From the NCBI GenBank assembly GCA_949285875.1, contig CASDZZ010000002.1:1101-65100 (forward strand): DNA of 64,000 bases, written 5' to 3'. The notes beneath the pieces were generated by a model. That model saw only the letters and a list, made by a program, of their open reading frames with translations, ran no database searches and was not told the origin of the DNA. The DNA is from an uncultured bacterium. GTDB taxonomy: Bacteria; Bacillota_I; Bacilli_A; RF39; UBA660. This document shows positions 2,485 to 36,351 of this stretch, in pieces (position 1 is the stretch's first letter; each line of letters starts with the position of its first letter). Both the position numbers and the translations under genes were made by a program.

Positions 2485-2511
2485 TTAAAAAAGAGGCTTT
2501 TTAAGCCTCTT
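2485..2511 (-). terminator. rho-independent terminator after the YjcZ-like peptide gene
   Basis: aagaggctt-ttt-aagcctctt forms a perfect 9-bp stem; a T-run follows on the minus strand. Confidence 0.55.
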
Positions 2512-2638
2512 AGCACATAAATGAGCCAACAATAATAGCAAGTAAAATATATAAAACAATTACTATTAAGTAGCCTTTACCAGATCTGCATCCGCAAGGA
2601 TTTGTGCAGCTGGTAGTTGTAGTTGAACAACATGCCAT
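2510..2638 (-). CDS. small membrane peptide, YjcZ-like sporulation peptide family candidate (42 aa, MACCSTTTTSCTNPCGCRSGKGYLIVIVLYILLAIIVGSFMC)
   Basis: GGAGG lies 10 nt upstream of the ATG. Gly/Cys-rich N-terminus followed by a hydrophobic tail like B. subtilis YjcZ. Not in the ORF track because it is under 60 aa. Confidence 0.5.
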   Translation of the reverse strand: MACCSTTTTSCTNPCGCRSGKGYLIVIVLYILLAIIVGSFMC

Positions 2639-4137: not shown

Positions 4138-4164
4138 AAAGAGGAAAAAAATTCCTCTTTTTTA
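4138..4164. terminator. bidirectional terminator between prsA and recX
   Basis: agaggaa-aaaaa-ttcctct hairpin flanked by an A-run and a T-run. Confidence 0.6.
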
Positions 4165-4938
4165 AATGTCATATAATTGATTTATTTCTTCTTTCGAATA
4201 ACCCTTTTGATATAATTTCCCGCTTATAAAATATTTTAATTTATCCTTGTCATACTTATTTTTATATTTATTAAATAATTTATCAAAATCTTTTTTTAAT
4301 AAATTATAATCTGTTTTAAAATGATGATTTTCTAAGAGTGACATAACATCTGATTTTTCATAACCAAGATTTAAAAAATAATTTAAAATTTTTGTTTTAA
4401 CTGAAGTTACATTTCCTTTTCTTATTTTCAACTGTTTTTCAAACAAATTATACATCTTTTCTTTTAACATATTATAATCAGTTTCCTCTAATACTTCGTC
4501 TATTATTTCTTTTGAAACTCCTAATTTAATTAAATTATTTTTTATTTTTAAAGGACCTGATGTACTTAAAACCAATTGATCATTTGCATAAGCTTTAGCA
4601 AAATTAAAGTCATTAATATAGTTTTCCCTTTCTAATCTACCTACTACTTCCTTAATTTTTTCTTCGTTAATTCCTTTTTTTATCAAATACTGATCTATTT
4701 CTTTTTTACTTCTTAATCTAATTAAAATATAATTTAAGGCTATAAAATAAGCATTAACAGCATTATTTTGTTCTAATAAAAAATCGATTGATTCTTTTTC
4801 TATCTCTTTTTTTAGTAATAAATTATTATCTATTATTACTTCTTCATAAAGAGTAATATTATTTCCATCATCTAAAAAAATTTTATACTTATTCTTAGAA
4901 ATTTTTTTGAATTTTAGTATTTTCATAAACTCCTCCAT
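4162..4938 (-). CDS. recX: recombination regulator RecX
   Basis: Length and helical-repeat pattern typical of RecX (KYKIFLDDGNNITL..., repeated L/K-rich three-helix units). Confidence 0.6.
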   Translation of the reverse strand: MEEFMKILKFKKISKNKYKIFLDDGNNITLYEEVIIDNNLLLKKEIEKESIDFLLEQNNAVNAYFIALNYILIRLRSKKEIDQYLIKKGINEEKIKEVVGRLERENYINDFNFAKAYANDQLVLSTSGPLKIKNNLIKLGVSKEIIDEVLEETDYNMLKEKMYNLFEKQLKIRKGNVTSVKTKILNYFLNLGYEKSDVMSLLENHHFKTDYNLLKKDFDKLFNKYKNKYDKDKLKYFISGKLYQKGYSKEEINQLYDI

Positions 4939-4955
4939 ACAAAAAAAACATAATA

Positions 4956-5159
4956 CTACTTAACGTGTATTAAGTCTTCCATAACTTCTTCTAAAGCTCT
5001 ACCTATATTTTTTTCACATTTATACTTTGACTCAGGCATTTGATAATGCTTAGTTTCAGTCATTTCCTTAGCTCTTCTAGAAACTATGTGAACTAACAAA
5101 TATTTAGATCCAACTTTAGTTAAAATTTTATCTATAGATGGATAAATCACTAATATCAC
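4956..5159 (-). CDS. rpoZ: DNA-directed RNA polymerase subunit omega
   Basis: YPSIDKILTKVGSKYLLVHIVSRRAKEM matches the RpoZ signature (PSIDxLLxKVDSKYxLVxxAAKRAR). Confidence 0.75.
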   Translation of the reverse strand: MILVIYPSIDKILTKVGSKYLLVHIVSRRAKEMTETKHYQMPESKYKCEKNIGRALEEVMEDLIHVK

Positions 5160-5236
5160 ACTCCCTAATACTAGAATACCACTAATGTAATATAATTATC
5201 AATAGTTTGTACATTATTTTACATTTTTTATAAAAT

Positions 5237-5728
5237 TTAAATAACTTTTTTTAGTTTTTGATCATTCAAAGAATACATTAAAGATTTACATAAAATGTTA
5301 TTATTATTCTCCATAACATCAAGCAACCTTTTATCAAAAGAAGAAATATCTTCTCCTTCTTCTTTTATTTTTTTTCTTAGATTACTAACGTTTTTTAAAA
5401 TAATTCTATTATTAGAACGAATTTTTTTATATAGATTTTCTTCAGTTGGATTTTCTTTCCAATCTCGATAACCAGAGCATAAAGATTTTGCTATTGTTTC
5501 AAATTCCTCACTATTAAATCCACGTTTCAAAAAAGCTTCCTTTATGCTTATTTTTCCTCCAAGTACTTTCAAAATATTTTGAAAACCTAATAAAATTTCT
5601 AACTCAGGATAAAAAACGTCAGCATAATTTAGTTCTTCTCTTTCTTCATCCCCATAACATGTAATTATAACTTTTTCTCTTAAAATTTCTAAAAAATCAT
5701 TACTAACATTTTCCATTATATCCTCCAC
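5237..5728 (-). CDS. hypothetical protein
   Basis: 163-aa ORF with no recognisable motif. It is the first gene of the recombinase island. Confidence 0.5.
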   Translation of the reverse strand: MEDIMENVSNDFLEILREKVIITCYGDEEREELNYADVFYPELEILLGFQNILKVLGGKISIKEAFLKRGFNSEEFETIAKSLCSGYRDWKENPTEENLYKKIRSNNRIILKNVSNLRKKIKEEGEDISSFDKRLLDVMENNNNILCKSLMYSLNDQKLKKVI

Positions 5729-5770
5729 ACTATCAAAATTATATCATAATTTTAATTTAACTAAAAGAAA

Positions 5771-5794
5771 AAAAGTTCCTAAAAGGGAACTTTT
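5771..5794. terminator. terminator hairpin downstream of the SWIM-protein gene
   Basis: aaaagttcc-taaaag-ggaactttt forms a 9-bp stem; T-run on the minus strand. Confidence 0.55.
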
Positions 5795-5945
5795 TTAAAA
5801 CTTGTTACAACAACCAGGATCAACGTTTGTTACTACGTCTTCTTCAGAACAAGTATATTGTGGCGTATATTTATGTTCTATTATATGGTTATTAATAACT
5901 TTGGTGTGAATTGGACAAATATGTCCTTGCCCTTTTTTGATAGAT

Positions 5946-7529
5946 TTAATTTTTAATTGCTTTATTTATTTCATCAAATAACGCTGAACACTTTTGATAA
6001 TCTGAATTTTTTAAATCTATTAAAATTTTTTCTACTAATTCATTACCATTATTCAATTTTGAAATTGCACTTATATATTTTGATGCTTTATTGTAAATAT
6101 CTCTGCTCTTTTCTTGTTTAAGAATATTATAAAATTCATTAATAAAATGATTATATAATTCATCGTTATAGTTATCTTTTAAAATTTCTATATTATCTAA
6201 CAATAAATATCTATAATTACTATCAATTAATAAGTTCCATAACTTTTCTTGTTTTTCATAAAATTTATAAAGCTTAACAAGTAAGAAAATATCTTTAGTT
6301 TTATTTTCTATAATACTAATAATTTTATCTTCAGTTAAATAATACCCTAAAATATTCAAATACTCAATATGTCCCAAACATAAATAACTATACAAATAAT
6401 GATTCGTATTTATATCTTTATTTTCAAAATCAGTAACCCTAACAAACCTATATAATACATCTGGAATATACATTTTATTTCTAAAATGTTTTTTTTCAAT
6501 TAATTTCATAAAAGATTTATATAAATTCATAATATCATTACTATTTTCTACTATATAATCAATATATTGAAAATATTTAGCATTTTTCAACATTAAACTA
6601 GCACACTCTGTTATGGTAAAATCATTTAATAAATGAATGGCTATTAAGACATTTGATTTTGGAACTGTATTTTTAATACTATAATGTTTTAAACTGCCTA
6701 AATAATCTTCTAATATTTTACAAAATTCATAAATTTCTTCACTACTTTTATTTTTTTTATAAAATTGAGCAATCCATCTATAATCAGAATAAACTGATAA
6801 TTTTTCATTTAATAATATTTTATCTATTTGCAATTGTAATGATTCATTTTTATATAGTTCCTCTATTTTTCTTTTTTCTCTAACATTTAATATTTCTTTA
6901 TCAAAATCATTATAATCATAATTATAATAACCAGTTAGATCTTGAACTCTTTTGTTTAATCTATCTAAAAATACAAACTCATCACTATTATTCTGTAAAT
7001 ATTTTTTATAATTCTTTTCTAGATATAAGTCATATGTTCTTTTCTCATTATTTTTAAGTTCTGTTAACAATGTTGATTTTAATTCTTCTATACTCAAATC
7101 ATCAACATATTTTTCTAATACTACATCAAAAAATAACGGTTTTTCAAAATTAAAAGATTTAATATAATCATGATAATAATCTCCATCGTTATAATAACTA
7201 TCATATTCATAGTAGTCGTCTTCGCCATCTTCATCATAATCACTATTTAGCCAGGATTCATAATCATCTACTTCATCAGGAAACAATTCAAAATATAATG
7301 CAGTCATATGCTTACAAGTAATATTTCCATTTGCATGAGGACAATCACAATATGATTTTCTAGGATGTTTTATATCTATCTTTACATAATAAGGATTTTT
7401 TAAACTTCCATCAACATATCCCTCAAATTCATGATCATTTAATTGTTTTACATTACTAACTTTATTATATTTATAATAGTCATAACCTCTACTAACAGAA
7501 GAACTACTTGCACTTGTAAGAATGCTCAT
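5946..7529 (-). CDS. SWIM zinc-finger domain protein with an acidic Tyr/Asp-rich low-complexity segment
   Basis: CDCPHANGNITCKHMTALYF fits the SWIM pattern CxCx(n)CxH. An acidic stretch DYDEDGEDDYYEYDSYYNDGDYYHDY follows. The rest is alpha-helical and K/N-rich. Confidence 0.7.
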   Translation of the reverse strand: MSILTSASSSSVSRGYDYYKYNKVSNVKQLNDHEFEGYVDGSLKNPYYVKIDIKHPRKSYCDCPHANGNITCKHMTALYFELFPDEVDDYESWLNSDYDEDGEDDYYEYDSYYNDGDYYHDYIKSFNFEKPLFFDVVLEKYVDDLSIEELKSTLLTELKNNEKRTYDLYLEKNYKKYLQNNSDEFVFLDRLNKRVQDLTGYYNYDYNDFDKEILNVREKRKIEELYKNESLQLQIDKILLNEKLSVYSDYRWIAQFYKKNKSSEEIYEFCKILEDYLGSLKHYSIKNTVPKSNVLIAIHLLNDFTITECASLMLKNAKYFQYIDYIVENSNDIMNLYKSFMKLIEKKHFRNKMYIPDVLYRFVRVTDFENKDINTNHYLYSYLCLGHIEYLNILGYYLTEDKIISIIENKTKDIFLLVKLYKFYEKQEKLWNLLIDSNYRYLLLDNIEILKDNYNDELYNHFINEFYNILKQEKSRDIYNKASKYISAISKLNNGNELVEKILIDLKNSDYQKCSALFDEINKAIKN

Positions 7530-7563
7530 ACTACCACCTCTTGATATATTATTATATCATACC

Positions 7564-9132
7564 CTAATTAGAATTATTAAAACTAACTTTAATTTTTATA
7601 GTTTTATCTTCAAAGATTTCTATTTTATCAATTAGATTAATTATTAATTCTCGGCTTGGTTCTTTCATAGATAAAAACTTATTAATATATTCATGAATCA
7701 TTTTATTTTTATATTCTTCATGAATAGTATCATCGATCTCATTATTTAACTCGTTATATCTTTTTTGTTTTATATTTAATTCATTTTCTAGTTTTAATTT
7801 TAATCTTTCAAATTGTTCTTCGGTTATCTTTTTATTTAATTTATCAATATAAATAATATCTAAGTTATCATTTATTTGTTTAATATCTTTGGTAAGTATT
7901 TCTAACTCTTTTTTATTATTAAACTTATTATCTTCTGTTAAATTATTTAATACATTATTTTTTATTTCATCTTTATTAAGATAATTTAAACACATATTAA
8001 TTAAAGATTTAATTATCGTTTTCTCTAATTCATCATAATTATTTGAATGAGTTGTACAAAGTTTTTGTTTCATATAAGTTCGATAATAATTACAAACAGT
8101 ATAACATCTATTATCTTTTTTTCTTCTTGCTTGTACTGAAATGCGATGTCCACAATCACCACAATATAAAAGCCCATCTAATAAATGATTTTCTTTCTTT
8201 TCATTTCTTCCCACATTTTTAGGTATTCTTTTTCGCGTTTCATAAAAGGTATCCTTATCAATAATCGCCTCATGGGTATTCTCTACAATTATATAGTCGC
8301 ATACATTATTTTTAATAACTTTTTTAACTTTATAATTAACTTTACTTCTTCTATTTTGAACCATATCTCCTATATACATCCTATTAGTTAAAATATCTCT
8401 TATTGTTTTAGAATGCCACTCTCCATACTTTAAATTATAATTATTTTTCCATTCAAAACTATAATACCCAGCTGGTGTTTTGACTCCTTCATTCGTTAAC
8501 TGTTTTGCTATTTTAAAAAATGATAATCCCTCTAAACACATATCAAAAATTCTTTTAACAACTAATGCTTGTTCTTCATTTATTACCAAATGATTTTTAT
8601 CATTCGGATCTTGATCATATCCAAATGGAGTTCTACCTCCTACCCATTTTCCTTCTTTTTGTTTTGCTCTTAAACTTGATTTAATTTTTTTAGAGATATC
8701 TTTAGCATACATATCATTCATAATTGCCTTGAATGGTGCAATATCATTATTAGAATTATCTAGAAAAGTGTCTATATTATCTGTAACTGCAATATACCTT
8801 ACATTATGCTCTGGAAAATACTTTTCTATTAAATTACCTGTACCAATATAATCTCTTCCTAATCTTGACATATCTTTAGTAATAACCATATTAACTCTAC
8901 CTAATTCAATATCATTTAATAATCTATTGAAATCGGGTCTATCAAAATTAGTTCCACTATATCCATCATCAATATAAATATCATAGACTCTTAAATTATT
9001 TTCTTTAACATATTGAAGTAATAAACTCTTTTGATTTGTAATACTTTCACTTTCTAATGCTTTATCATCATCTTCACGAGATAACCTTATATAAATACCA
9101 ACATTATATATCTTATTTATACTCCCTAACAA
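7564..9132 (-). CDS. large serine recombinase (resolvase/invertase N-domain + recombinase domain + zinc ribbon + coiled coil)
   Basis: GIYIRLSREDDDK...SITNQ catalytic-Ser motif. Downstream Cys cluster CGDCGHR...CYTVCNYYR. C-terminal coiled coil. TTG start with a GGAGG RBS. Confidence 0.85.
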   Translation of the reverse strand: MLGSINKIYNVGIYIRLSREDDDKALESESITNQKSLLLQYVKENNLRVYDIYIDDGYSGTNFDRPDFNRLLNDIELGRVNMVITKDMSRLGRDYIGTGNLIEKYFPEHNVRYIAVTDNIDTFLDNSNNDIAPFKAIMNDMYAKDISKKIKSSLRAKQKEGKWVGGRTPFGYDQDPNDKNHLVINEEQALVVKRIFDMCLEGLSFFKIAKQLTNEGVKTPAGYYSFEWKNNYNLKYGEWHSKTIRDILTNRMYIGDMVQNRRSKVNYKVKKVIKNNVCDYIIVENTHEAIIDKDTFYETRKRIPKNVGRNEKKENHLLDGLLYCGDCGHRISVQARRKKDNRCYTVCNYYRTYMKQKLCTTHSNNYDELEKTIIKSLINMCLNYLNKDEIKNNVLNNLTEDNKFNNKKELEILTKDIKQINDNLDIIYIDKLNKKITEEQFERLKLKLENELNIKQKRYNELNNEIDDTIHEEYKNKMIHEYINKFLSMKEPSRELIINLIDKIEIFEDKTIKIKVSFNNSN

Positions 9133-9302
9133 TTCTTACCTCCTTCTAGAGATAAATAAGTACATGATGATGGTACCTCACAATTTTTATTTTTACAAAT
9201 TGTTTTAATATATTTTTTAAGTTCTTTATTTAAAACATTTATTAAGATATCATTTACATCTTTTTCTTTATTAAAAATAAAATTTATTTTGTACTTATCC
9301 AT
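9123..9302 (-). CDS. small hypothetical protein (59 aa) overlapping the recombinase start by 10 nt
   Basis: GAGGTG RBS 8 nt upstream of the ATG at 9302. Product MDKYKINFIFNKEKDVNDILINVLNKELKKYIKTICKNKNCEVPSSCTYLSLEGGKNC. Under 60 aa, so absent from the ORF track. Confidence 0.4.
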
Positions 9303-9346
9303 AACTCTCGCACCTCACTTAAATTTATGGATAAATAACTAATTTT

Positions 9347-9397
9347 AGTAATACTAAATCGTGTAAATATCACATTACACATTAATTTAGTATTACT
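9347..9397. promoter_or_regulatory. 51-bp imperfect palindrome (operator or att-like site) upstream of the small-ORF/recombinase operon
   Basis: 13-bp perfect inverted repeat agtaatactaaat at 9347-9359 and 9385-9397, enclosing an inner inverted repeat gtgtaa / ttacac (9361-9366 and 9375-9380). On the minus strand it overlaps a TAAAAT -10-like box about 45 nt ahead of the ATG at 9302. Confidence 0.5.
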
Positions 9398-9718
9398 TAT
9401 AGGTATTCACCTCTTTAATAATTATTTTTTAAATTTTCATAAACATCATCTCCTTTCACGATGCATGCTAACTTACTAATCAATTCTTATTAATCAATTC
9501 TTGTCAAATCATATTTTTTTGCTTTAATTATTCTAAATACCATTATTTTTTATTAATTCTACTAAAGCAGGATAAGATGATGACACCACAATATAAAAAA
9601 AGCCCTTATACAATAAGGATTTGTTATGGTGTCATTCTTATTTTATACTTACAAAATTCATCCTACTTCGCAGGTTAATATAAAGGGTAAATTCTTATTT
9701 TATAAGATATTAAAGCAT

Positions 9719-9766
9719 ATAAAAACATCCTATATTTAATAAATTAATTATTTTTGTAGGATGTTT
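9719..9766 (-). terminator. terminator after the Fic gene
   Basis: aacatccta...taggatgtt 9-bp stem followed by a T-run on the minus strand. Confidence 0.5.
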
Positions 9767-9772
9767 AATTTT

Positions 9773-10543
9773 TTAATTGTTTTCTTCAATTTTAAAATCT
9801 AGTAATTCTTCACACATTTTTTCGTATAAATCTTGTTCATGTCTAATAGTATCAATCAAGAACATTTTATCATTTTCGTATTCTTTTAAACCTCTCATAT
9901 AATAAGGTTTATCATCATCTAATACAATAAATGGCATAATGTTATTTCTTAAACATTCTTTAAACATTATAATTCTACCTACACGACCATTTCCATCTCC
10001 AAATGGATGAATTCTTTCAAATCTAAAATGAAAATCAACTATATCTTCTAAAGTAATACTAATTTTAGAATTATATTCATTTAATAATTCTTCTATTTCT
10101 TTTTCAACATCTTCTGGTGCTGTAGTATTAATAACATTAACTACACCTATTATATTAGGAACAATTTTAAATCCACCAACATTATATCTAGGATTTTCTT
10201 CATCACTAGTATTTCTTTTTAAAATCTTATTCATTTCAATTATCATATCTTCAGTTAATGAGTTATCAACGTTATCTAACATATAATCAAATAATTTAAA
10301 ATGATTTTTAGATTCGATTAAATCATCTAATTTAATTAAATCATCACTTTTAGGAACAAATGAAGATGTATCGAATATTGCTTCGGTTTGATCACTTGTT
10401 AATCTACTACCTTCAATTTTATTTGAATTATAAGCAAAATTAACTTGTGAATAATGATATATATTACCTTTAAATTTAGACTCTTTTTGTTTAATTAATT
10501 CATTTTTAATTTTATTTATATCCATATATTCATTTCTCCTCAT
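9773..10543 (-). CDS. Fic/Doc family protein (Fido), class-II-like with an N-terminal inhibitory motif
   Basis: Core Fic motif HPFGDGNGRVGR. N-terminal SNKIEG matches the inhibitory motif (S/T)xxxE(G/N). Confidence 0.85.
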   Translation of the reverse strand: MRRNEYMDINKIKNELIKQKESKFKGNIYHYSQVNFAYNSNKIEGSRLTSDQTEAIFDTSSFVPKSDDLIKLDDLIESKNHFKLFDYMLDNVDNSLTEDMIIEMNKILKRNTSDEENPRYNVGGFKIVPNIIGVVNVINTTAPEDVEKEIEELLNEYNSKISITLEDIVDFHFRFERIHPFGDGNGRVGRIIMFKECLRNNIMPFIVLDDDKPYYMRGLKEYENDKMFLIDTIRHEQDLYEKMCEELLDFKIEENN

Positions 10544-11016
10544 TTTATATTATTTAAACGTTTTAATATTTTATAACTATTTTCTAATCTATCTCTTTCT
10601 GATTTAAAATCTTCCATATCATTAGTTAATATATAACCACCTGTTTCTATAAATTCTTGATTATAATTACTTGCTAAAGAAATCCATTTTTCTGCATCAG
10701 AATGAGATAAGTGCACCATTTCCAGACATTCTAGTTCATCATCATACAAGCCAAACCAATTTTCATCATAAGGTCTATCATCGATATAAATAATATCTCC
10801 AAAGATTGATAGCATTAAATCTTTAAAATTTTTATATGTTAAGCTCTGTTCATCTTTTGAAAAAATGTCTGTTTTATAACCATAATTGCTAAAAAGTTCA
10901 TTCAATTTTGGAACTATTTCATTAATATGATTTTCATTGAATTCTATCATAGAGGTAGTTCCATAATGATAAACGTTAGCTATCATTATTCTAATTATTA
11001 ATTCTATTTCACTCAT
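10540..11016 (-). CDS. hypothetical protein translationally coupled to Fic; possible antitoxin or immunity partner
   Basis: Its stop overlaps the Fic start as ATGA. 158-aa acidic protein with no clear motif. Confidence 0.5.
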   Translation of the reverse strand: MSEIELIIRIMIANVYHYGTTSMIEFNENHINEIVPKLNELFSNYGYKTDIFSKDEQSLTYKNFKDLMLSIFGDIIYIDDRPYDENWFGLYDDELECLEMVHLSHSDAEKWISLASNYNQEFIETGGYILTNDMEDFKSERDRLENSYKILKRLNNIK

Positions 11017-11133
11017 TTATCATCACCTGATTCGATATCTATTAAAATTATACCATATAATAAGACATTTTTTATCAATATGTCTTTCATTTGTACTTAT
11101 TTTCTCTTAATTTATTTAGTCTATCATAAATTA

Positions 11134-11286
11134 TCACACTTGTTCAACAGTATGACAAATATCTCTAGTTACACATTTTTCTATTGTTGGTTCTATAACT
11201 GGATTACAAGGAAATTCTGTTGGACACTTGTTTTCACAGCAGCAGTCATTCATTTGAAAACCGCCAAACTTATTATTAAAAAACAT
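11134..11286 (-). CDS. Cys-rich small protein (50 aa, MFFNNKFGGFQMNDCCCENKCPTEFPCNPVIEPTIEKCVTRDICHTVEQV)
   Basis: GGGGGA RBS 6 nt upstream. Lies directly downstream of ffh with no intervening terminator. The strand-opposite 77-aa ORF 11080..11313 is less plausible. Confidence 0.45.
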   Translation of the reverse strand: MFFNNKFGGFQMNDCCCENKCPTEFPCNPVIEPTIEKCVTRDICHTVEQV

Positions 11287-11358
11287 TTAAAATCCCCCTT
11301 ACCTACTTTATAGTATGAGAATTTTAAATGTTTGAATAGGTTTTCACCTCATAAATAA

Positions 11359-12666
11359 TTAAAAAGGCATTTTAAAATTTCCGTTTTTCATCATCTTCAT
11401 CATTTTCTTCATTTGCTCGAACTGTGTTAAAAGGCGATTAACTTCTTGAACAGTAGTTCCACTTCCACTTGCTATTCTTTGTTTTCTAGAAGCCTTTATT
11501 ATATCAGGGTTTCTTCTTTCTTTAATAGTCATAGAAGAAATAATAGCTTCTAACCTACTAAATTGCTTAGGGTCTATACTTATGTTATTAAGTCCCATTT
11601 TTCTAGCTCCTGGAAGTAACTTTAATAAATTTTCTAATGGTCCTAGCTTCTTAATTTGCTTTAGTTGTGATAAAAAGTCTTCTAAATCAAACTTACCTTG
11701 CTGCATCTTTTTAACGGTAGACATCGCTTCTTTTTCATCAATTACACTTTCTGCTTTTTCAATGATTGACATTATATCTCCGTTACCTAATATTCTAGAT
11801 ACCATTCTTTCTGGATCAAATGAATCTAATCCATCTAATTTTTCACTAGTACCTATAAACTTAATTGGAACACCGGTTAAATGCTTAGCTGATAAAGCAA
11901 CTCCGCCCTTAGTATCACCGTCCATTTTAGTTAAAATAGTACCTGTTAGAGGAAGAGCTTCGTTAAAACCTTTTATAACGTTAATTGCATCTTGACCTAT
12001 CATAGCATCAATAATAAGAATTATTTCGTTAGGATTTACAGATTCTCTTATTTCTTTTAATTCATCCATTAATTTTTCATCTACGTGCAATCTACCTGCC
12101 GTATCAACTAAAATTAAATCATAGCCTTTTTCTTTAGCATAATTAACACCATTTTTAACTATTTCTACCGCGTTTTTTTGACCTTCTTCATATACTTCTA
12201 TATTAAGTTCTTTACCTAAGGTTTTAAGCTGCTCTATTGCTGCAGGGCGGTATACATCAGCCGCTATAAACATAGGCTTTTTGCTTTTTTTCTTCCTAAG
12301 TAAGTTTCCTAACTTTCCTATTGTTGTAGTTTTACCTGAACCTTGAAGACCTACTAACATAACGATAGAAGGATTTTTAGATAAATCTATTTCAGCTTTT
12401 TCGTTACCTAGTAAAGCTAGAAGTTCATCTTTTAATATTTTTAAGAATACTTCACCTGGTTTTAAACTTTTCTTAACTTCTTCTCCTAAAGCTTTTTCTT
12501 TAACTTTGTTAGTAAATTCTTTGACAACTTTATAGTTAACATCAGCTTCTAGTAAAGCAAGTCTTACGTCACGCATTGCATCACTTATATTATCTTCGGT
12601 TATTCTTCCATAACCCTTAATCTTACTTACCGCGTTTTCTAATTTTTCTGTTAAACTTTCAAACAT
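11359..12666 (-). CDS. ffh: signal recognition particle protein Ffh
   Basis: GLQGSGKTTT P-loop, SRP54 N/G domains, Met-rich C-terminus. Confidence 0.95.
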   Translation of the reverse strand: MFESLTEKLENAVSKIKGYGRITEDNISDAMRDVRLALLEADVNYKVVKEFTNKVKEKALGEEVKKSLKPGEVFLKILKDELLALLGNEKAEIDLSKNPSIVMLVGLQGSGKTTTIGKLGNLLRKKKSKKPMFIAADVYRPAAIEQLKTLGKELNIEVYEEGQKNAVEIVKNGVNYAKEKGYDLILVDTAGRLHVDEKLMDELKEIRESVNPNEIILIIDAMIGQDAINVIKGFNEALPLTGTILTKMDGDTKGGVALSAKHLTGVPIKFIGTSEKLDGLDSFDPERMVSRILGNGDIMSIIEKAESVIDEKEAMSTVKKMQQGKFDLEDFLSQLKQIKKLGPLENLLKLLPGARKMGLNNISIDPKQFSRLEAIISSMTIKERRNPDIIKASRKQRIASGSGTTVQEVNRLLTQFEQMKKMMKMMKNGNFKMPF

Positions 12667-35792: not shown

Positions 35793-35943
35793 ACCATCAC
35801 CTTATTTAGCATTATACAATAAGTATAATAAAATTGCAAGCAAAGAAAAATTAAGAACTTTCAATTATGCAGGCTTTTAAAATGGTACTATTTACCACCT
35901 TTTGAATAAGCTAATAGTGAAAAAGATAGAAAGGGTGAATTTT

Positions 35944-36351
35944 ATGTGTGATAATTCAAATACAAACTCTAAATGTAATTGCATAGCTGAAATACTAAAA
36001 GTAATAAATATTCTACAAAGCGAAGTATGTCCAGGAAATTCTTGTTTAGAAACTTGTACAAGAGCTTATTTTGGAACAAGTTCTTCTGTAGATTTCAACA
36101 CAAGACCTGTAACTCTATATACTTGCAATAATGGTGCTCTAGCAATGCCTATATCTAACTCTCCTACTGAAAGGACAACGTCTAACATTTTCAGGGTTGA
36201 AAAAGTAGATGGTTGTTGCGCTACTCTAAGAGTTTTAGTATATAATCAAGAAACCTCTACATACACTTCTACAAATTCATTTTTCACAATAAATACAGAT
36301 TGTTGTTGTGCAATAAAATGTTTAGGCGATACCTACGTAGAAGGTGTTTAA
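35944..36351 (+). CDS. CotY/CotZ-family spore coat (exosporium-type) Cys-rich protein
   Basis: FRVEKVDGCCATLRVLV and DCCCAIKCLG resemble the CotZ/CotY motifs FRVERVHGSCATL and CFCAINCL. GAAAGGGTG RBS ahead of the ATG at 35944; the ORF-track start at 35902 is an extension. Confidence 0.7.
   Translation: MCDNSNTNSKCNCIAEILKVINILQSEVCPGNSCLETCTRAYFGTSSSVDFNTRPVTLYTCNNGALAMPISNSPTERTTSNIFRVEKVDGCCATLRVLVYNQETSTYTSTNSFFTINTDCCCAIKCLGDTYVEGV

What the first reader, a model, noticed from the sequence alone, without database searches (positions are those of the whole stretch)
5237..11330. Recombinase island replaces the usual ffh-downstream ribosomal operon
In Bacillus and Clostridium-type genomes ffh is followed by rpsP-(ylqCD)-rimM-trmD-rplS. 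Here ffh is instead followed, on the same strand, by a Cys-rich 50-aa peptide, an unknown 158-aa protein coupled to a Fic gene, a small ORF, a large serine recombinase, a SWIM zinc-finger protein and a 163-aa unknown, before the core genes rpoZ and recX resume. This architecture looks like an integrated element or a sporulation-excised intervening element. The cargo of Fic, SWIM protein and Cys-rich peptide does not match a system I can name, so this is the best candidate in the window for a novel accessory module.
Basis: partly seen in the sequence, partly recalled or inferred. Interest (0 to 1): 0.7.

Follow-up and report, generated by a model that had tools for sequence, protein, structure and literature searches.

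The report
Mobile recombinase element splitting spore-coat gene
A 5.2-kb mobile element carrying a large serine recombinase sits precisely inside a small CotD-like spore-coat gene just after ffh, and it belongs to a widespread, previously undescribed family of miniature elements that split this same codon in dozens of uncultured gut Bacilli species.

Summary
The 'Cys-rich 50-aa peptide' (11286..11134, minus strand) is the 5' half of a CotD-like spore-coat gene. Its 3' half lies at 5923..5795. Between them sits a 5,219-bp element (5922..11140) carrying p158, Fic, a 58-aa ORF, a large serine recombinase (LSR) and a SWIM protein.

Joining the halves at a shared CA gives an in-frame 90-aa ORF. It passes Pfam's CotD threshold and aligns end to end with intact homologs. 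The 163-aa ORF is flanking host DNA.

Relatives without any recombinase have ffh, intact cotD-like gene, unknown ORF(s), rpoZ, recX. So nothing 'replaced' a ribosomal operon.

At least 57 other species-level genomes carry related elements (2.8-11.3 kb) at the same codon, with conserved att arms. Of 20 in-silico rejoined ORFs, 8 exist as exact natural proteins. One same-species pair of empty and occupied sites shows a clean 3-kb insertion.

LSR divergence does not track host Ffh divergence, so the family moves horizontally.

Sporulation-timed excision is inferred from sigmaK/E-type promoter boxes and intact gene halves. It is not shown. I class it as a new variant of the skin/gin class of gene-intervening elements.

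The parts
11141..11286 (-). 5' half of the split CotD-like spore-coat gene (codons 1-48 plus the CA of the His-49 codon). In the integrated state it reads on into the element and stops at 11134, which gives the '50-aa peptide'.
   Evidence: It aligns with residues 1-48 of intact homologs. The element's P' arm supplies TGA TAA two codons after the junction.
11309..11317 (-). CATACTATA box about 31 nt upstream of the cotD-like ATG. It matches the sigmaK -10 consensus CATAnnnTA.
   Evidence: the motif sits at the same position in 49 of 58 distinct upstream regions, for split and intact genes alike. The consensus is taken from B. subtilis knowledge, so sigma-factor dependence is inferred.
11119..11165 (-). 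attL. Host B arm (...CATACTGTTGAA), CA core at 11142..11141, then the element P' arm AGTGTGATAATTTATGATAGAC (11140..11119).
   Evidence: the same P' arm abuts the same codon in 57 loci; same-species comparison of an empty and an occupied site.
5922..11140 (-). The intervening element, 5,219 bp counting one copy of the CA core. All its genes are co-oriented with the split gene.
11047..11055 (-). TGGTATAAT, an extended -10-like box upstream of p158-Fic. It is a candidate vegetative promoter.
   Evidence: repeat D20. Read from the sequence only.
10540..11016 (-). p158, a variable cargo gene in slot 1. Its stop overlaps the Fic start. Function unknown.
   Evidence: no significant family; present in only 3 of 34 elements.
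9773..10543 (-). Fic protein with the active-site motif HPFGDGNGRVGR and an N-terminal SNKIEG inhibitory-type motif. It is part of the conserved core of the element family.
   Evidence: PF02661. (PADLOC candidate PDC-S04, 1.4e-100). (C. difficile Fic 4x2e, 1.4e-31); 84-96% identical in the elements where it was detected, and present in 25 of 34 fully delimited elements.
9721..9764 (-). Terminator-like hairpin after Fic: ACATCCTA ... TAGGATGT followed by TTTTT.
   Evidence: Read. The tool's scan missed it because the loop exceeds 8 nt.
9347..9397 (-). The outer stem of 13 bp is invariant. The inner stem of 7 bp shows GC-to-GU changes. It is not an att site.
9311..9355 (-). Invariant block TAGTATTACTAAAA-N7-TTTATCCATAAATTTAAGTGAGGTG just upstream of the 58-aa ORF. 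It contains a CATA-type -10 box (9329..9321) of the sigmaE/sigmaK kind.
   Evidence: invariant in 57 sequences while its surroundings vary. Promoter identity is inferred.
9126..9302 (-). 58-aa ORF translationally coupled to the recombinase. It is the candidate recombination directionality or accessory factor.
   Evidence: present upstream of every family LSR, including the 56%-identical ones; dN/dS 0.21-0.24; a small family with 59 representatives. No Pfam, PHROG or PADLOC hit.
7564..9132 (-). Large serine recombinase, 522 aa.
   Evidence: three Pfam domains. (phrog_95 integrase, 1e-111). (TnpX catalytic domain, 8.6e-27); hundreds of relatives.
5946..7529 (-). SWIM zinc-finger plus alpha-solenoid protein. 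It is a variable cargo gene in slot 2. Function unknown.
   Evidence: model with pLDDT 86; no significant PDB fold match; present in 5 of 34 elements.
5900..5944 (-). attR. Element P arm TCTATCAAAAAAGGGCAAGGA (starts 2 nt after the SWIM stop), CA core at 5923..5922, then the host B' arm TATTTGTCCAATTCAC...
   Evidence: the same arm at the same codon in 47 loci..
5795..5923 (-). 3' half of the CotD-like gene (His-49 to Phe-90 plus the stop codon).
   Evidence: 0 of 45 distinct 3' halves carry a stop.
5769..5796 (-). Intrinsic terminator of the cotD-like gene.

Best explanation
The region is a 5.2-kb non-phage integrative element inserted by its own large serine recombinase into codon His-49 of a 90-aa CotD-like spore-coat gene that natively follows ffh in this lineage.

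Shown:
- The element runs from 11140 to 5922.
- Recombination at the shared CA dinucleotide between attL and attR would remove it as a circle. That would restore an intact, in-frame gene.
- The same event has happened at the same codon in many species.
- The element family moves horizontally between hosts.

Inferred (most likely mechanism):
- The target gene is a late mother-cell gene of the sigmaK type.
- The 58-aa ORF and the LSR are transcribed from their own conserved CATA-type (sigmaE/K-like) promoter. A terminator and a hairpin insulate them from the vegetatively expressed p158-Fic genes.
- During sporulation the LSR excises the element only from the terminally differentiating mother-cell chromosome, probably helped by the 58-aa protein acting as directionality factor. 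The coat gene can then be expressed, while the spore keeps the element.
- Fic is core. SWIM and p158 are swappable cargo. They ride along as payload, possibly for defence or addiction.
For: Gene split and rejoining:
- Intact homologs (43 proteins of 80-96 aa) align across both halves.
- The junction rebuilds the invariant His codon in frame.
- The rejoined 90-aa ORF scores 23.7 bits against Pfam CotD (threshold 22). Neither half passes alone.

Synteny:
- Element-free relatives with Ffh 88-89% identical have ffh, intact cotD-like gene, unknown ORF(s), rpoZ, recX.

Family-wide precision:
- The P' arm abuts the same CA in 57 loci and the P arm in 47 loci.
- The outer motifs TCTATCA and TGATAGA lie 30 bp apart, centred on the CA.
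- An intact P-CA-P' junction exists in the tandem array of L051.
- All 35 loci with both junctions rejoin in frame.
- 8 of 20 rejoined ORFs exist as exact natural proteins.
- L099 (empty) and L016 (occupied) are one species. Their flanks are 99.6% and 96.2% identical, with a 3-nt ACA overlap and a 3,045-bp insert.

Mobility:
- There is no correlation between Ffh and LSR distances (r = -0.06, Mantel p about 0.68).
- One LSR lineage occurs in at least 25 host groups. One host group carries six LSR lineages.

Sporulation link:
- A CATAnnnTA box sits at a fixed position upstream of the gene in 49 of 58 distinct upstream regions.
- A CotZ-family gene lies in the window.
- An invariant CATA-type block lies upstream of the 58-aa ORF and LSR.
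- The 3' halves are intact, with dN/dS 0.22 and no stops in 45.
- The 58-aa ORF is conserved, coupled to the LSR and under purifying selection.

Precedents:
- gin, skin, SPbeta and yin are all excised in sporulation by an LSR plus a small directionality factor (PMC5595907, PMC5499854, PMC5025042, PMC10747680).
Against: - No direct evidence of excision. No free attP junction turned up in IMG/VR or JGI metagenome contigs.
- The window's own rejoined protein is absent from 15 billion proteins.
- For the one species checked, empty and occupied alleles were seen in different samples. That fits plain strain polymorphism equally well.
- The promoter assignments rest on consensus matching only. The -10 of the LSR operon is CATAAATTT (8 of 9 for sigmaK, 6 of 8 for sigmaE). 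It lies so close to the ribosome-binding site that the leader would be very short.
- The LSR catalytic domain is closest to TnpX. TnpX is naturally bidirectional and needs no directionality factor (PMC2475636).
- A factor translationally coupled to its recombinase would make integration hard to explain.
- Intact gene halves could simply reflect recent insertions.
- The CotD match is only just above threshold.
Confidence: 0.55

Rival explanations
1. It is the same integrated LSR element, but with no developmental programme. It is a selfish, horizontally moving mini-island that uses a conserved but dispensable coat gene as a landing pad. Carriers simply lack the coat protein. Excision is rare and stochastic, or tied to transfer. 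The LSR may act alone in both directions, as TnpX and TndX do.
For: - The LSR catalytic domain is nearest to TnpX, and TnpX/TndX need no accessory factor (PMC2475636).
- There is strong horizontal spread and turnover.
- Empty and occupied alleles occur in different samples of one species.
- No attP circles are assembled anywhere.
- The tandem array in L051 implies promiscuous recombination between non-canonical site pairs.
Against: - None of 45 distinct 3' halves and none of 35 rejoined ORFs shows a stop or frameshift.
- The sigmaK-type box of the target gene is kept in split alleles.
- An invariant non-sigma70, CATA-type block precedes the recombinase operon.
- Every characterised LSR element inside a sporulation gene has turned out to be excised during sporulation (PMC5595907, PMC10747680).
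Confidence: 0.35
2. It is an ancient, domesticated, vertically inherited intervening element like skin. It would no longer be mobile and would be kept only as a developmental switch.
For: - It sits at the same codon in many species.
- It has no phage or conjugation genes.
Against: - LSR and Fic are more conserved than Ffh between hosts. The LSR is the less diverged protein in 70% of genome pairs.
- Ffh and LSR distances are uncorrelated.
- The window's closest relatives by Ffh have empty sites, or a 67%-identical LSR lineage in L078.
- Presence and absence vary within species.
Confidence: 0.04
3. One reading: a recombinase island of seven cargo genes (Cys-rich peptide, p158, Fic, small ORF, LSR, SWIM, p163) that displaced the rpsP-rimM-trmD-rplS operon downstream of ffh, bounded near 5237 and 11330.
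For: - The gene order in the window is as described.
- In Bacillus, ffh is followed by rpsP (general knowledge).
Against: - Element-free relatives have ffh, cotD-like gene, unknown ORF(s), rpoZ, recX.
- The junctions lie inside the cotD-like gene.
- The peptide is a gene half.
- p163 is flanking host DNA.
Confidence: 0.02

Closest known systems
gin element of Bacillus cereus ATCC10987 (gerE-intervening, GirC + GirX; PMC5595907)
   Same: Both are non-phage elements that split a very small mother-cell sporulation gene (gerE is 225 bp; here the gene is 273 bp). Both rely on a large serine recombinase. Both have a short shared core at the junctions and an imperfect inverted repeat in the element site. 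Both carry a tiny ORF with no recognisable motif as partner or candidate partner (GirX is 42 aa; here 58 aa).
   Different: - gin is 28.6 kb with three recombinases. This family is 2.8-11.3 kb with one.
- The target is a structural coat gene, not a regulator.
- The core here is 2-3 bp (CA/ACA), against 9 bp in gin.
- The small ORF is translationally coupled to the LSR.
- Fic is a core gene.
- The family is spread over dozens of species by horizontal transfer.
- Excision has not been shown experimentally.
skin (sigK; SpoIVCA) and skinCd (CD1231 + CD1234), SPbeta (spsM; SprA + SprB), vfbin, vrin, yin (yabG)
   Same: An LSR-bearing element lies inside a mother-cell sporulation gene, and precise excision rebuilds the ORF. 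In those systems timing is set by sigmaE/K-dependent expression of the recombinase or its directionality factor (PMC4191935, PMC5499854, PMC5025042, PMC10747680).
   Different: This element has no phage genes. Its LSR is at most 35% identical to any LSR in 50,697 phage records. Its host is an uncultured gut Bacilli clade of about 24% GC.
Tn4451/Tn5397-type serine-recombinase transposons (TnpX, TndX)
   Same: These are small non-phage elements moved by a large serine recombinase through a circular intermediate. The catalytic domain here is most similar to TnpX among solved structures (8.6e-27).
   Different: No relaxase or mobilisation gene and no resistance gene were found in the window's element. 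The element is strictly specific for one codon in one gene, whereas those transposons use many GA-centred targets (recalled from memory). The crossover dinucleotide here is CA.
SCC-type cassettes (CcrA/B/C)
   Same: NCBIfam's best full-length LSR models are CcrC and CcrB (2e-32 and 8e-31, far below their cut-offs). Both kinds have modular cargo around a recombinase core. Tandem or composite arrays occur in both (L051).
   Different: SCC elements insert at the 3' end of rlmH without inactivating it. Here the gene is split in the middle. The Ccr equivalog thresholds (900 bits) are not approached.

Membership tests
Sporulation gene-intervening element (skin / SPbeta / gin class) | An exogenous element interrupts the coding sequence of a sporulation gene | tested here: met
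   - The halves lie at 11286..11141 and 5923..5795.
- Intact homologs span both halves.
- The rejoined ORF is above the Pfam CotD threshold.
- A same-species empty site exists in a related host.
Sporulation gene-intervening element (skin / SPbeta / gin class) | The element encodes the site-specific (serine) recombinase that acts on its own ends | tested here: inconclusive
   An LSR is present with all three domains. The att arms are conserved alongside the LSR in 47-57 loci. Activity on these sites was not tested.
Sporulation gene-intervening element (skin / SPbeta / gin class) | Precise excision restores an intact, in-frame gene | tested here: met
   Tested in silico only. 35 of 35 loci rejoin in frame. 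8 of 20 rejoined ORFs are identical to natural proteins.
Sporulation gene-intervening element (skin / SPbeta / gin class) | Excision is developmentally timed and confined to the mother cell | not testable with these tools
   Only indirect evidence: a CATAnnnTA box upstream of the target gene and a CATA-type block upstream of the LSR operon.
Sporulation gene-intervening element (skin / SPbeta / gin class) | A recombination directionality factor is encoded in the element | tested here: inconclusive
   The 58-aa ORF is always linked to the LSR and is under purifying selection. It has no homology to known factors, and no interaction test was possible.
Large serine recombinase | Resolvase catalytic domain + Recombinase domain + zinc beta-ribbon | tested here: met
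   PF00239 6.5e-24, PF07508 1.8e-23, PF13408 1.2e-09, all above their thresholds.
CotD inner spore coat protein family (PF11122) | Score above the Pfam gathering threshold | tested here: met
   The rejoined 90-aa ORF scores 23.7 bits against a cut-off of 22 (E 7e-5). 28 of 35 family members hit the model. The margin is small. The halves alone give no hit and 16.1 bits.
Fic/DOC family (AMP-transferase type) | Fic domain with the HxFx(D/E)GNGRxxR motif | tested here: met
   PF02661 at 56.7 bits. The motif HPFGDGNGRVGR and an N-terminal SNKIEG inhibitory-type motif are visible in the sequence. The nearest structure is C. difficile Fic. Enzymatic activity was not tested.
Prophage or prophage remnant | Phage structural, packaging or lysis genes | tested here: not met
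   PHROGs hits only for the integrase and for Fic families of unknown function. No close match in 50,697 phage records.
Tn4451/Tn5397-type LSR transposon | A mobilisation or conjugation function, and many GA-centred targets | tested here: not met
   No Mob or relaxase domain in any of the element's ORFs. The family uses a single target codon with a CA core in 57 loci.
SWIM zinc finger (PF04434) | CxCxnCxH zinc-finger domain above the Pfam threshold | tested here: inconclusive
   13.6 bits against a cut-off of 19.6. The motif C61-x-C63 ... C72-x-H74 is invariant in 26 homologs. Two homologs carry a precomputed PF04434 hit.
Known anti-phage defence system (PADLOC) | Match to a validated system | tested here: not met
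   Only candidate families match: Fic to PDC-S04 (1.4e-100) and the SWIM N-terminus to PDC-S62 (3e-9). These are unvalidated candidates.

The most novel reading that the evidence does not exclude
A previously undescribed, broad-host-range family of miniature elements (as small as 2.8 kb) with a Fic, small-ORF and LSR core has specialised on one invariant codon of a spore-coat gene. Its excision is wired to the mother cell. The element is therefore shed only from the disposable genome, and every spore inherits it. It also shuttles swappable toxin and defence cargo (Fic, MazEF, NERD, SWIM) between gut spore-formers. The conserved 58-aa protein would be a new family of recombination directionality factor, translationally coupled to its recombinase.
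Probability: 0.35. Interest if true: 0.72.

Novelty: new variant of a known kind. Interest (0 to 1): 0.6.

Why it matters
Gene-intervening elements in sporulation genes are known from a handful of cultured Bacillus and Clostridium strains. Almost all are large prophage remnants.

This case adds several things:
- a new target, a structural coat gene;
- a new host clade of uncultured gut Bacilli with about 24% GC;
- by far the smallest architecture seen so far;
- comparative evidence that such elements can be actively mobile across species while staying faithful to one codon.

The comparative data give exact attB, attP, attL and attR sequences, plus a compact LSR and a candidate partner protein. 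These can be tested directly in vitro or in B. subtilis, and they could serve as a new site-specific integration tool.

The case also shows that a 'small Cys-rich peptide' annotated next to a recombinase can be half of a real gene. That matters for annotating metagenome-assembled genomes.

Tried and rejected
1. A 9-bp direct repeat, ATATTTGTC (11162..11154 and 5922..5914), as the att core. Joining there gave an 83-aa ORF that lacked seven conserved residues and scored below the CotD threshold. The repeat is internal to the gene (ICH / ICP).

No boundary repeats were found. The palindrome is a regulatory hairpin with no compensatory pair changes.

3. Free circular or attP junctions. Two IUPAC patterns gave 0 hits in IMG/VR and in JGI metagenomes. 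Only the tandem array in L051 matched.

4. An empty-site allele of the window's own species. It was not found by exact Ffh look-up or by exact protein look-up.

5. Rfam on 4900-11500: nothing.

6. The sigma70 promoter scan was at chance level, 62 found against 61.4 expected.

7. Phage and plasmid records: no LSR above 36% identity.

8. SWIM protein function. There was no PDB sequence hit. The model is good, but no fold match had an E-value below 0.02. The afdb50 library was unavailable.

9. p158: only chance-level ZorC hits.

10. A vertical-inheritance, skin-like model, rejected by the Mantel test and by the lineage-versus-host table.

11. Co-occurrence of intact and split alleles in one sample. 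It was not seen in the 10 + 10 samples listed for one species.

Full report
**What is in the window.**

On the minus strand the order is:
- ftsY, ylxM, ffh (12666..11359)
- a 50-aa Cys-rich ORF (11286..11134)
- a 158-aa ORF (11016..10540) whose stop overlaps the start of a Fic gene
- Fic (10543..9773)
- a 470-bp spacer
- a 58-aa ORF (9302..9126) overlapping the start of a 522-aa large serine recombinase
- the LSR (9132..7564)
- a 527-aa SWIM-motif protein (7529..5946)
- a 217-bp 'intergenic' stretch
- a 163-aa ORF (5728..5237)
- rpoZ and recX

GC content is about 19-30% throughout, with no compositional step at the block.

**The Cys-rich 'peptide' is half a gene.**

Translating the 217-bp stretch below the SWIM gene gives ...HICPIHTKVINNHIIEHKYTPQYTCSEEDVVTNVDPGCCNKF*, followed by a strong terminator at 5796..5769.

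My first guess at the junction was a 9-bp repeat, ATATTTGTC. It was wrong. A search with that join found 43 uninterrupted proteins of 80-96 aa. Their alignment showed seven conserved residues missing.

DNA comparison with intact genes of relatives puts the break elsewhere:
- attL: ...CTGTTGAACA|AGTGTGATAA..., with the CA at 11142..11141.
- attR: ...GGCAAGGACA|TATTTGTCC..., with the CA at 5923..5922.

The two junctions share only ACA. Joining at the CA rebuilds the invariant His codon and gives a 90-aa ORF:

MFFNNKFGGFQMNDCCCENKCPTEFPCNPVIEPTIEKCVTRDICHTVEHICPIHTKVINNHIIEHKYTPQYTCSEEDVVTNVDPGCCNKF

This ORF scores 23.7 bits against Pfam Spore-coat_CotD, where the gathering threshold is 22. Of 35 family members, 28 hit the same model. 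The 5' half alone hits nothing, and the 3' half alone scores 16.1 bits.

The element is therefore 5922..11140, which is 5,219 bp. The 163-aa ORF lies outside it. It is weakly homologous to the 159-aa ORF at the equivalent position in an element-free relative.

**Native synteny.**

Contigs from relatives whose Ffh is 88-89% identical to the window's (L005, L007-L009) carry this order: RNase J(-), an unknown ORF, ftsY, ylxM, ffh, an intact cotD-like gene of 91-92 aa, unknown ORF(s), rpoZ, recX, a rotamase(-), and a small 46-aa ORF. This is the window's order with no recombinase.

L001 and L010 (Ffh 86-87%) also have an intact gene directly after ffh. The L001 contig ends just after the gene, and L010 has a different downstream neighbourhood.

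So ffh is not followed by rpsP in this lineage, and nothing was 'replaced'. It is met for the replacement idea. The same observation also proves that the block is an insertion.

**A large family at one codon.**

- The LSR has more than 120 cluster representatives at 83-90% identity.
- A scan of one genome per species found 575 stretches that encode relatives of it.
- The best 80 loci are gut MAGs labelled Bacilli, Tenericutes, Mollicutes or Erysipelotrichaceae, from goat, rabbit, mouse and human.
- In these loci the cotD-like 3' half lies downstream of nearly every LSR that is at least 58% identical.
- I located attR in 47 loci. The P arm is (A/G)TCTATCAAAAAAGGGCAAGGACA, abutting T(G/A)TnTG(T/C)CC, which encodes His-Ile/Val-Cys-Pro.
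- I located attL in 57 loci. The host arm ...CATGAAGTnCCnCA abuts AGTGTGATAATTTATGATAGAC.
- The junction is always the CA of the same His codon.
- The outer motifs TCTATCA and TGATAGA are inverted and 30 bp apart, with the CA exactly at the centre. That is the geometry expected for a serine-recombinase attP with a central crossover dinucleotide.
- L051 holds two elements in tandem, separated by an intact P-CA-P' junction. This shows the two arms joined in nature.

**Precision of the predicted excision product.**

- All 35 loci with both junctions rejoin in frame to complete ORFs of 75-150 aa.
- Exact-sequence look-ups found 8 of 20 of these in-silico ORFs as real full-length proteins in public assemblies.
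- For the L016/L017 species the empty-site allele is common (1,816 index blocks). L099 aligns to L016 at 99.6% on the left and 96.2% on the right, with a 3-nt (ACA) overlap and a 3,045-bp insert.
- In the L072 species, intact and split alleles both follow the same ffh. They were found in different samples.
- The window's own rejoined protein is not in the collection.

**Architecture.**

Across 34 fully delimited elements the order is:
- slot 1, variable
- Fic (25 of 34)
- the small ORF
- the LSR (34 of 34)
- slot 2, variable

Nearly all genes are co-oriented with the split gene. The smallest elements, at 2.8-3.2 kb, are just Fic + small ORF + LSR (L023, L044, L057).

Slot 2 holds one of three things: a NERD nuclease with a zinc ribbon (8 elements), MazE + PemK (6-7), or the SWIM protein (5). 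Other cargo includes GNAT, ASCH, PHP, an MA-type peptidase, a P-type ATPase and DUF2207.

In the window, p158 fills slot 1 and SWIM fills slot 2.

**The proteins.**

*Fic.* It has the active-site motif HPFGDGNGRVGR and an N-terminal SNKIEG inhibitory-type motif. It matches the PADLOC candidate PDC-S04 (1.4e-100). Its nearest solved structure is C. difficile Fic.

*SWIM protein.* It models well (pLDDT 86) as a SWIM beta/zinc domain, an acidic disordered linker and an all-alpha solenoid. It has no significant PDB fold match.

*LSR.* It carries the three canonical domains. Its nearest solved catalytic domain is TnpX. It has no relative above 36% identity in phage or plasmid records.

*Phage content.* No phage structural genes are present.

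*The 58-aa ORF.*
- It precedes every LSR of the family, including the 56%-identical ones that are not in cotD.
- It has a conserved N-terminal 38 residues with dN/dS 0.21-0.24.
- It belongs to a small unannotated family with 59 representatives among 1.84 billion proteins.
- Its last codons carry the GGAGG ribosome-binding site of the LSR.

**Horizontal movement.**

Genomes whose LSR is 80-97% identical to the window's have Ffh only 63-73% identical. The window's nearest hosts by Ffh are either empty or, in L078, carry an LSR only 67% identical.

Over 42 genomes, Ffh and LSR distances are uncorrelated (r = -0.06, Mantel p about 0.68). The LSR is the less diverged protein in 70% of pairs.

One LSR lineage (at least 85% identity) occupies at least 25 host groups. 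One host group (Ffh at least 88% identical) carries six LSR lineages.

The family is therefore mobile, and the site turns over. How a 3-5 kb element with no transfer genes moves between cells is unknown.

**Link to sporulation (inferred).**

- The window encodes a CotZ-family coat protein.
- The split gene has CATACTATA (11317..11309) about 31 nt upstream of its ATG. A CATAnnnTA box, the sigmaK -10 consensus known from B. subtilis, sits at that position in 49 of 58 distinct upstream regions, split or intact.
- After Fic there is a terminator-like hairpin (9764..9721).
It has an invariant 13-bp outer stem and a 7-bp inner stem with one-sided GC-to-GU changes. There are no compensatory changes, and the left arm is missing in several elements.
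- Then comes a block that is invariant in 57 sequences: TAGTATTACTAAAA-N7-TTTATCCATAAATTTAAGTGAGGTG-ATG. It contains a CATA-type -10 box. TACTAAA-N14-CATAAATT matches 6 of 7 and 6 of 8 positions of the sigmaE consensus. CATAAATTT matches 8 of 9 positions of the sigmaK consensus.
- By contrast, p158-Fic is preceded by an extended -10 box, TGGTATAAT (11055..11047).
- The generic sigma70 scan is uninformative, with 62 hits against 61.4 expected.
- None of 45 distinct 3' halves has a stop, and their dN/dS is 0.22.

**Mechanism and its rivals.**

The best-supported reading has three steps:
1. The LSR integrated the element at the CA of His-49.
2. During sporulation the orf58-LSR operon is switched on in the mother cell.
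3. attL x attR recombination removes the element as a circle and restores the coat gene, while the forespore chromosome keeps the element.

This is what happens with gin (GirC + 42-aa GirX), skin, SPbeta (SprA + SprB), skinCd and yin (PMC5595907, PMC5499854, PMC5025042, PMC10747680).

The integration, the borders, the reversibility in sequence terms and the mobility are shown. The timing, the cell type and the role of the 58-aa protein are inferred.

The main rival is that the element is simply a selfish island in a dispensable gene, moved in both directions by a TnpX-like LSR acting alone (PMC2475636), so that carriers lack the coat protein. Three observations favour this rival:
- no attP circles were found;
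- intact and split alleles were seen only in different samples;
- a directionality factor coupled to its recombinase is an awkward design.

I put the developmental model at about 0.55 and this rival at about 0.35. That the region is an LSR element splitting a CotD-like gene I hold at above 0.95.

**Novelty.**

The literature held here lists sigK, spsM, spoVFB, spoVR, gerE and yabG as interrupted sporulation genes. cotD is mentioned in none of the papers these searches returned or that I read. This is a new target and a new host clade. The architecture is much smaller and modular, with a Fic core, and there is comparative evidence for cross-species mobility. The principle is known, so I class it as a new variant of a known kind.

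Noticed in passing
L051:202-8400 (attP-type junction at L051:3384-3430): Two related elements sit in tandem in one cotD-like gene. The first has an LSR 72% identical to the window's and a SWIM-like gene end. The second has Fic, the small ORF and an LSR. They are separated by an intact P-CA-P' junction. This implies recombination between non-canonical site pairs (attP x attR), or stacking of elements.
   Followed up: partly
L091-L097 (e.g. L094:3494-10566): LSRs about 56% identical to the window's keep the same small upstream ORF (MVKYKVNLKFKD...) but are not next to a cotD-like gene. By eye, L094 carries DNA methyltransferase and restriction-like genes upstream. The insertion site of this sister group was not determined. 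It might be another gene.
   Followed up: partly
window 11130-11158 (minus strand): The attL junction creates a sigma70-like promoter, TTGTCA-17-GATAAT with an upstream TG. The -35 comes from the host gene and the extended -10 comes from the conserved P' arm, reading into the element. It could be chance, or a junction-dependent promoter as reported for Tn4451 circles (recalled from memory).
   Followed up: no
window about 9400-9510 (minus strand): Upstream of the conserved hairpin, many elements share a TTGAC(A/T)-N17-TAnCAT promoter-like site, a ribosome-binding site and a mini-ORF (MMFMKI* in the window, up to 14 aa elsewhere). The layout resembles a leader-peptide attenuator in front of orf58-LSR. 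The window also has a local duplication, aagaattgatta(a/g)taag.
   Followed up: no
window 2510-2638 (minus) and 35902-36351 (plus): There is a 42-aa Cys-rich membrane-anchored ORF (MACCSTTTTSCTNPCGC...). ORFs of 46-47 aa lie at the equivalent position in relatives (L005, L007); their sequences were not compared. There is also a CotZ-family spore-coat gene (Pfam 1e-13). Both suggest a spore-forming host.
   Followed up: partly
window 4162-5159; L102:1-3351: Core gene order around ffh is unusual across this clade. rpoZ is followed by recX; whether gmk lies nearby was not checked. In the L072 species, trmD lies just downstream of the cotD-like gene on the opposite strand. The clade seems to have a rearranged, possibly reduced genome of about 24% GC.
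   Followed up: no
window 5737-5745 and 11047-11055 (minus strand): Near-identical extended -10 boxes, TGATATAAT and TGGTATAAT, within a 19-nt repeat (89% identical). One precedes the host 163-aa ORF and the other the element's p158.
   Followed up: no
L010:4933-5907: ftsY is called as two ORFs (118 + 120 aa) in L010 but is intact in the near-identical L011 and L012. This is probably an assembly frameshift.
   Followed up: no
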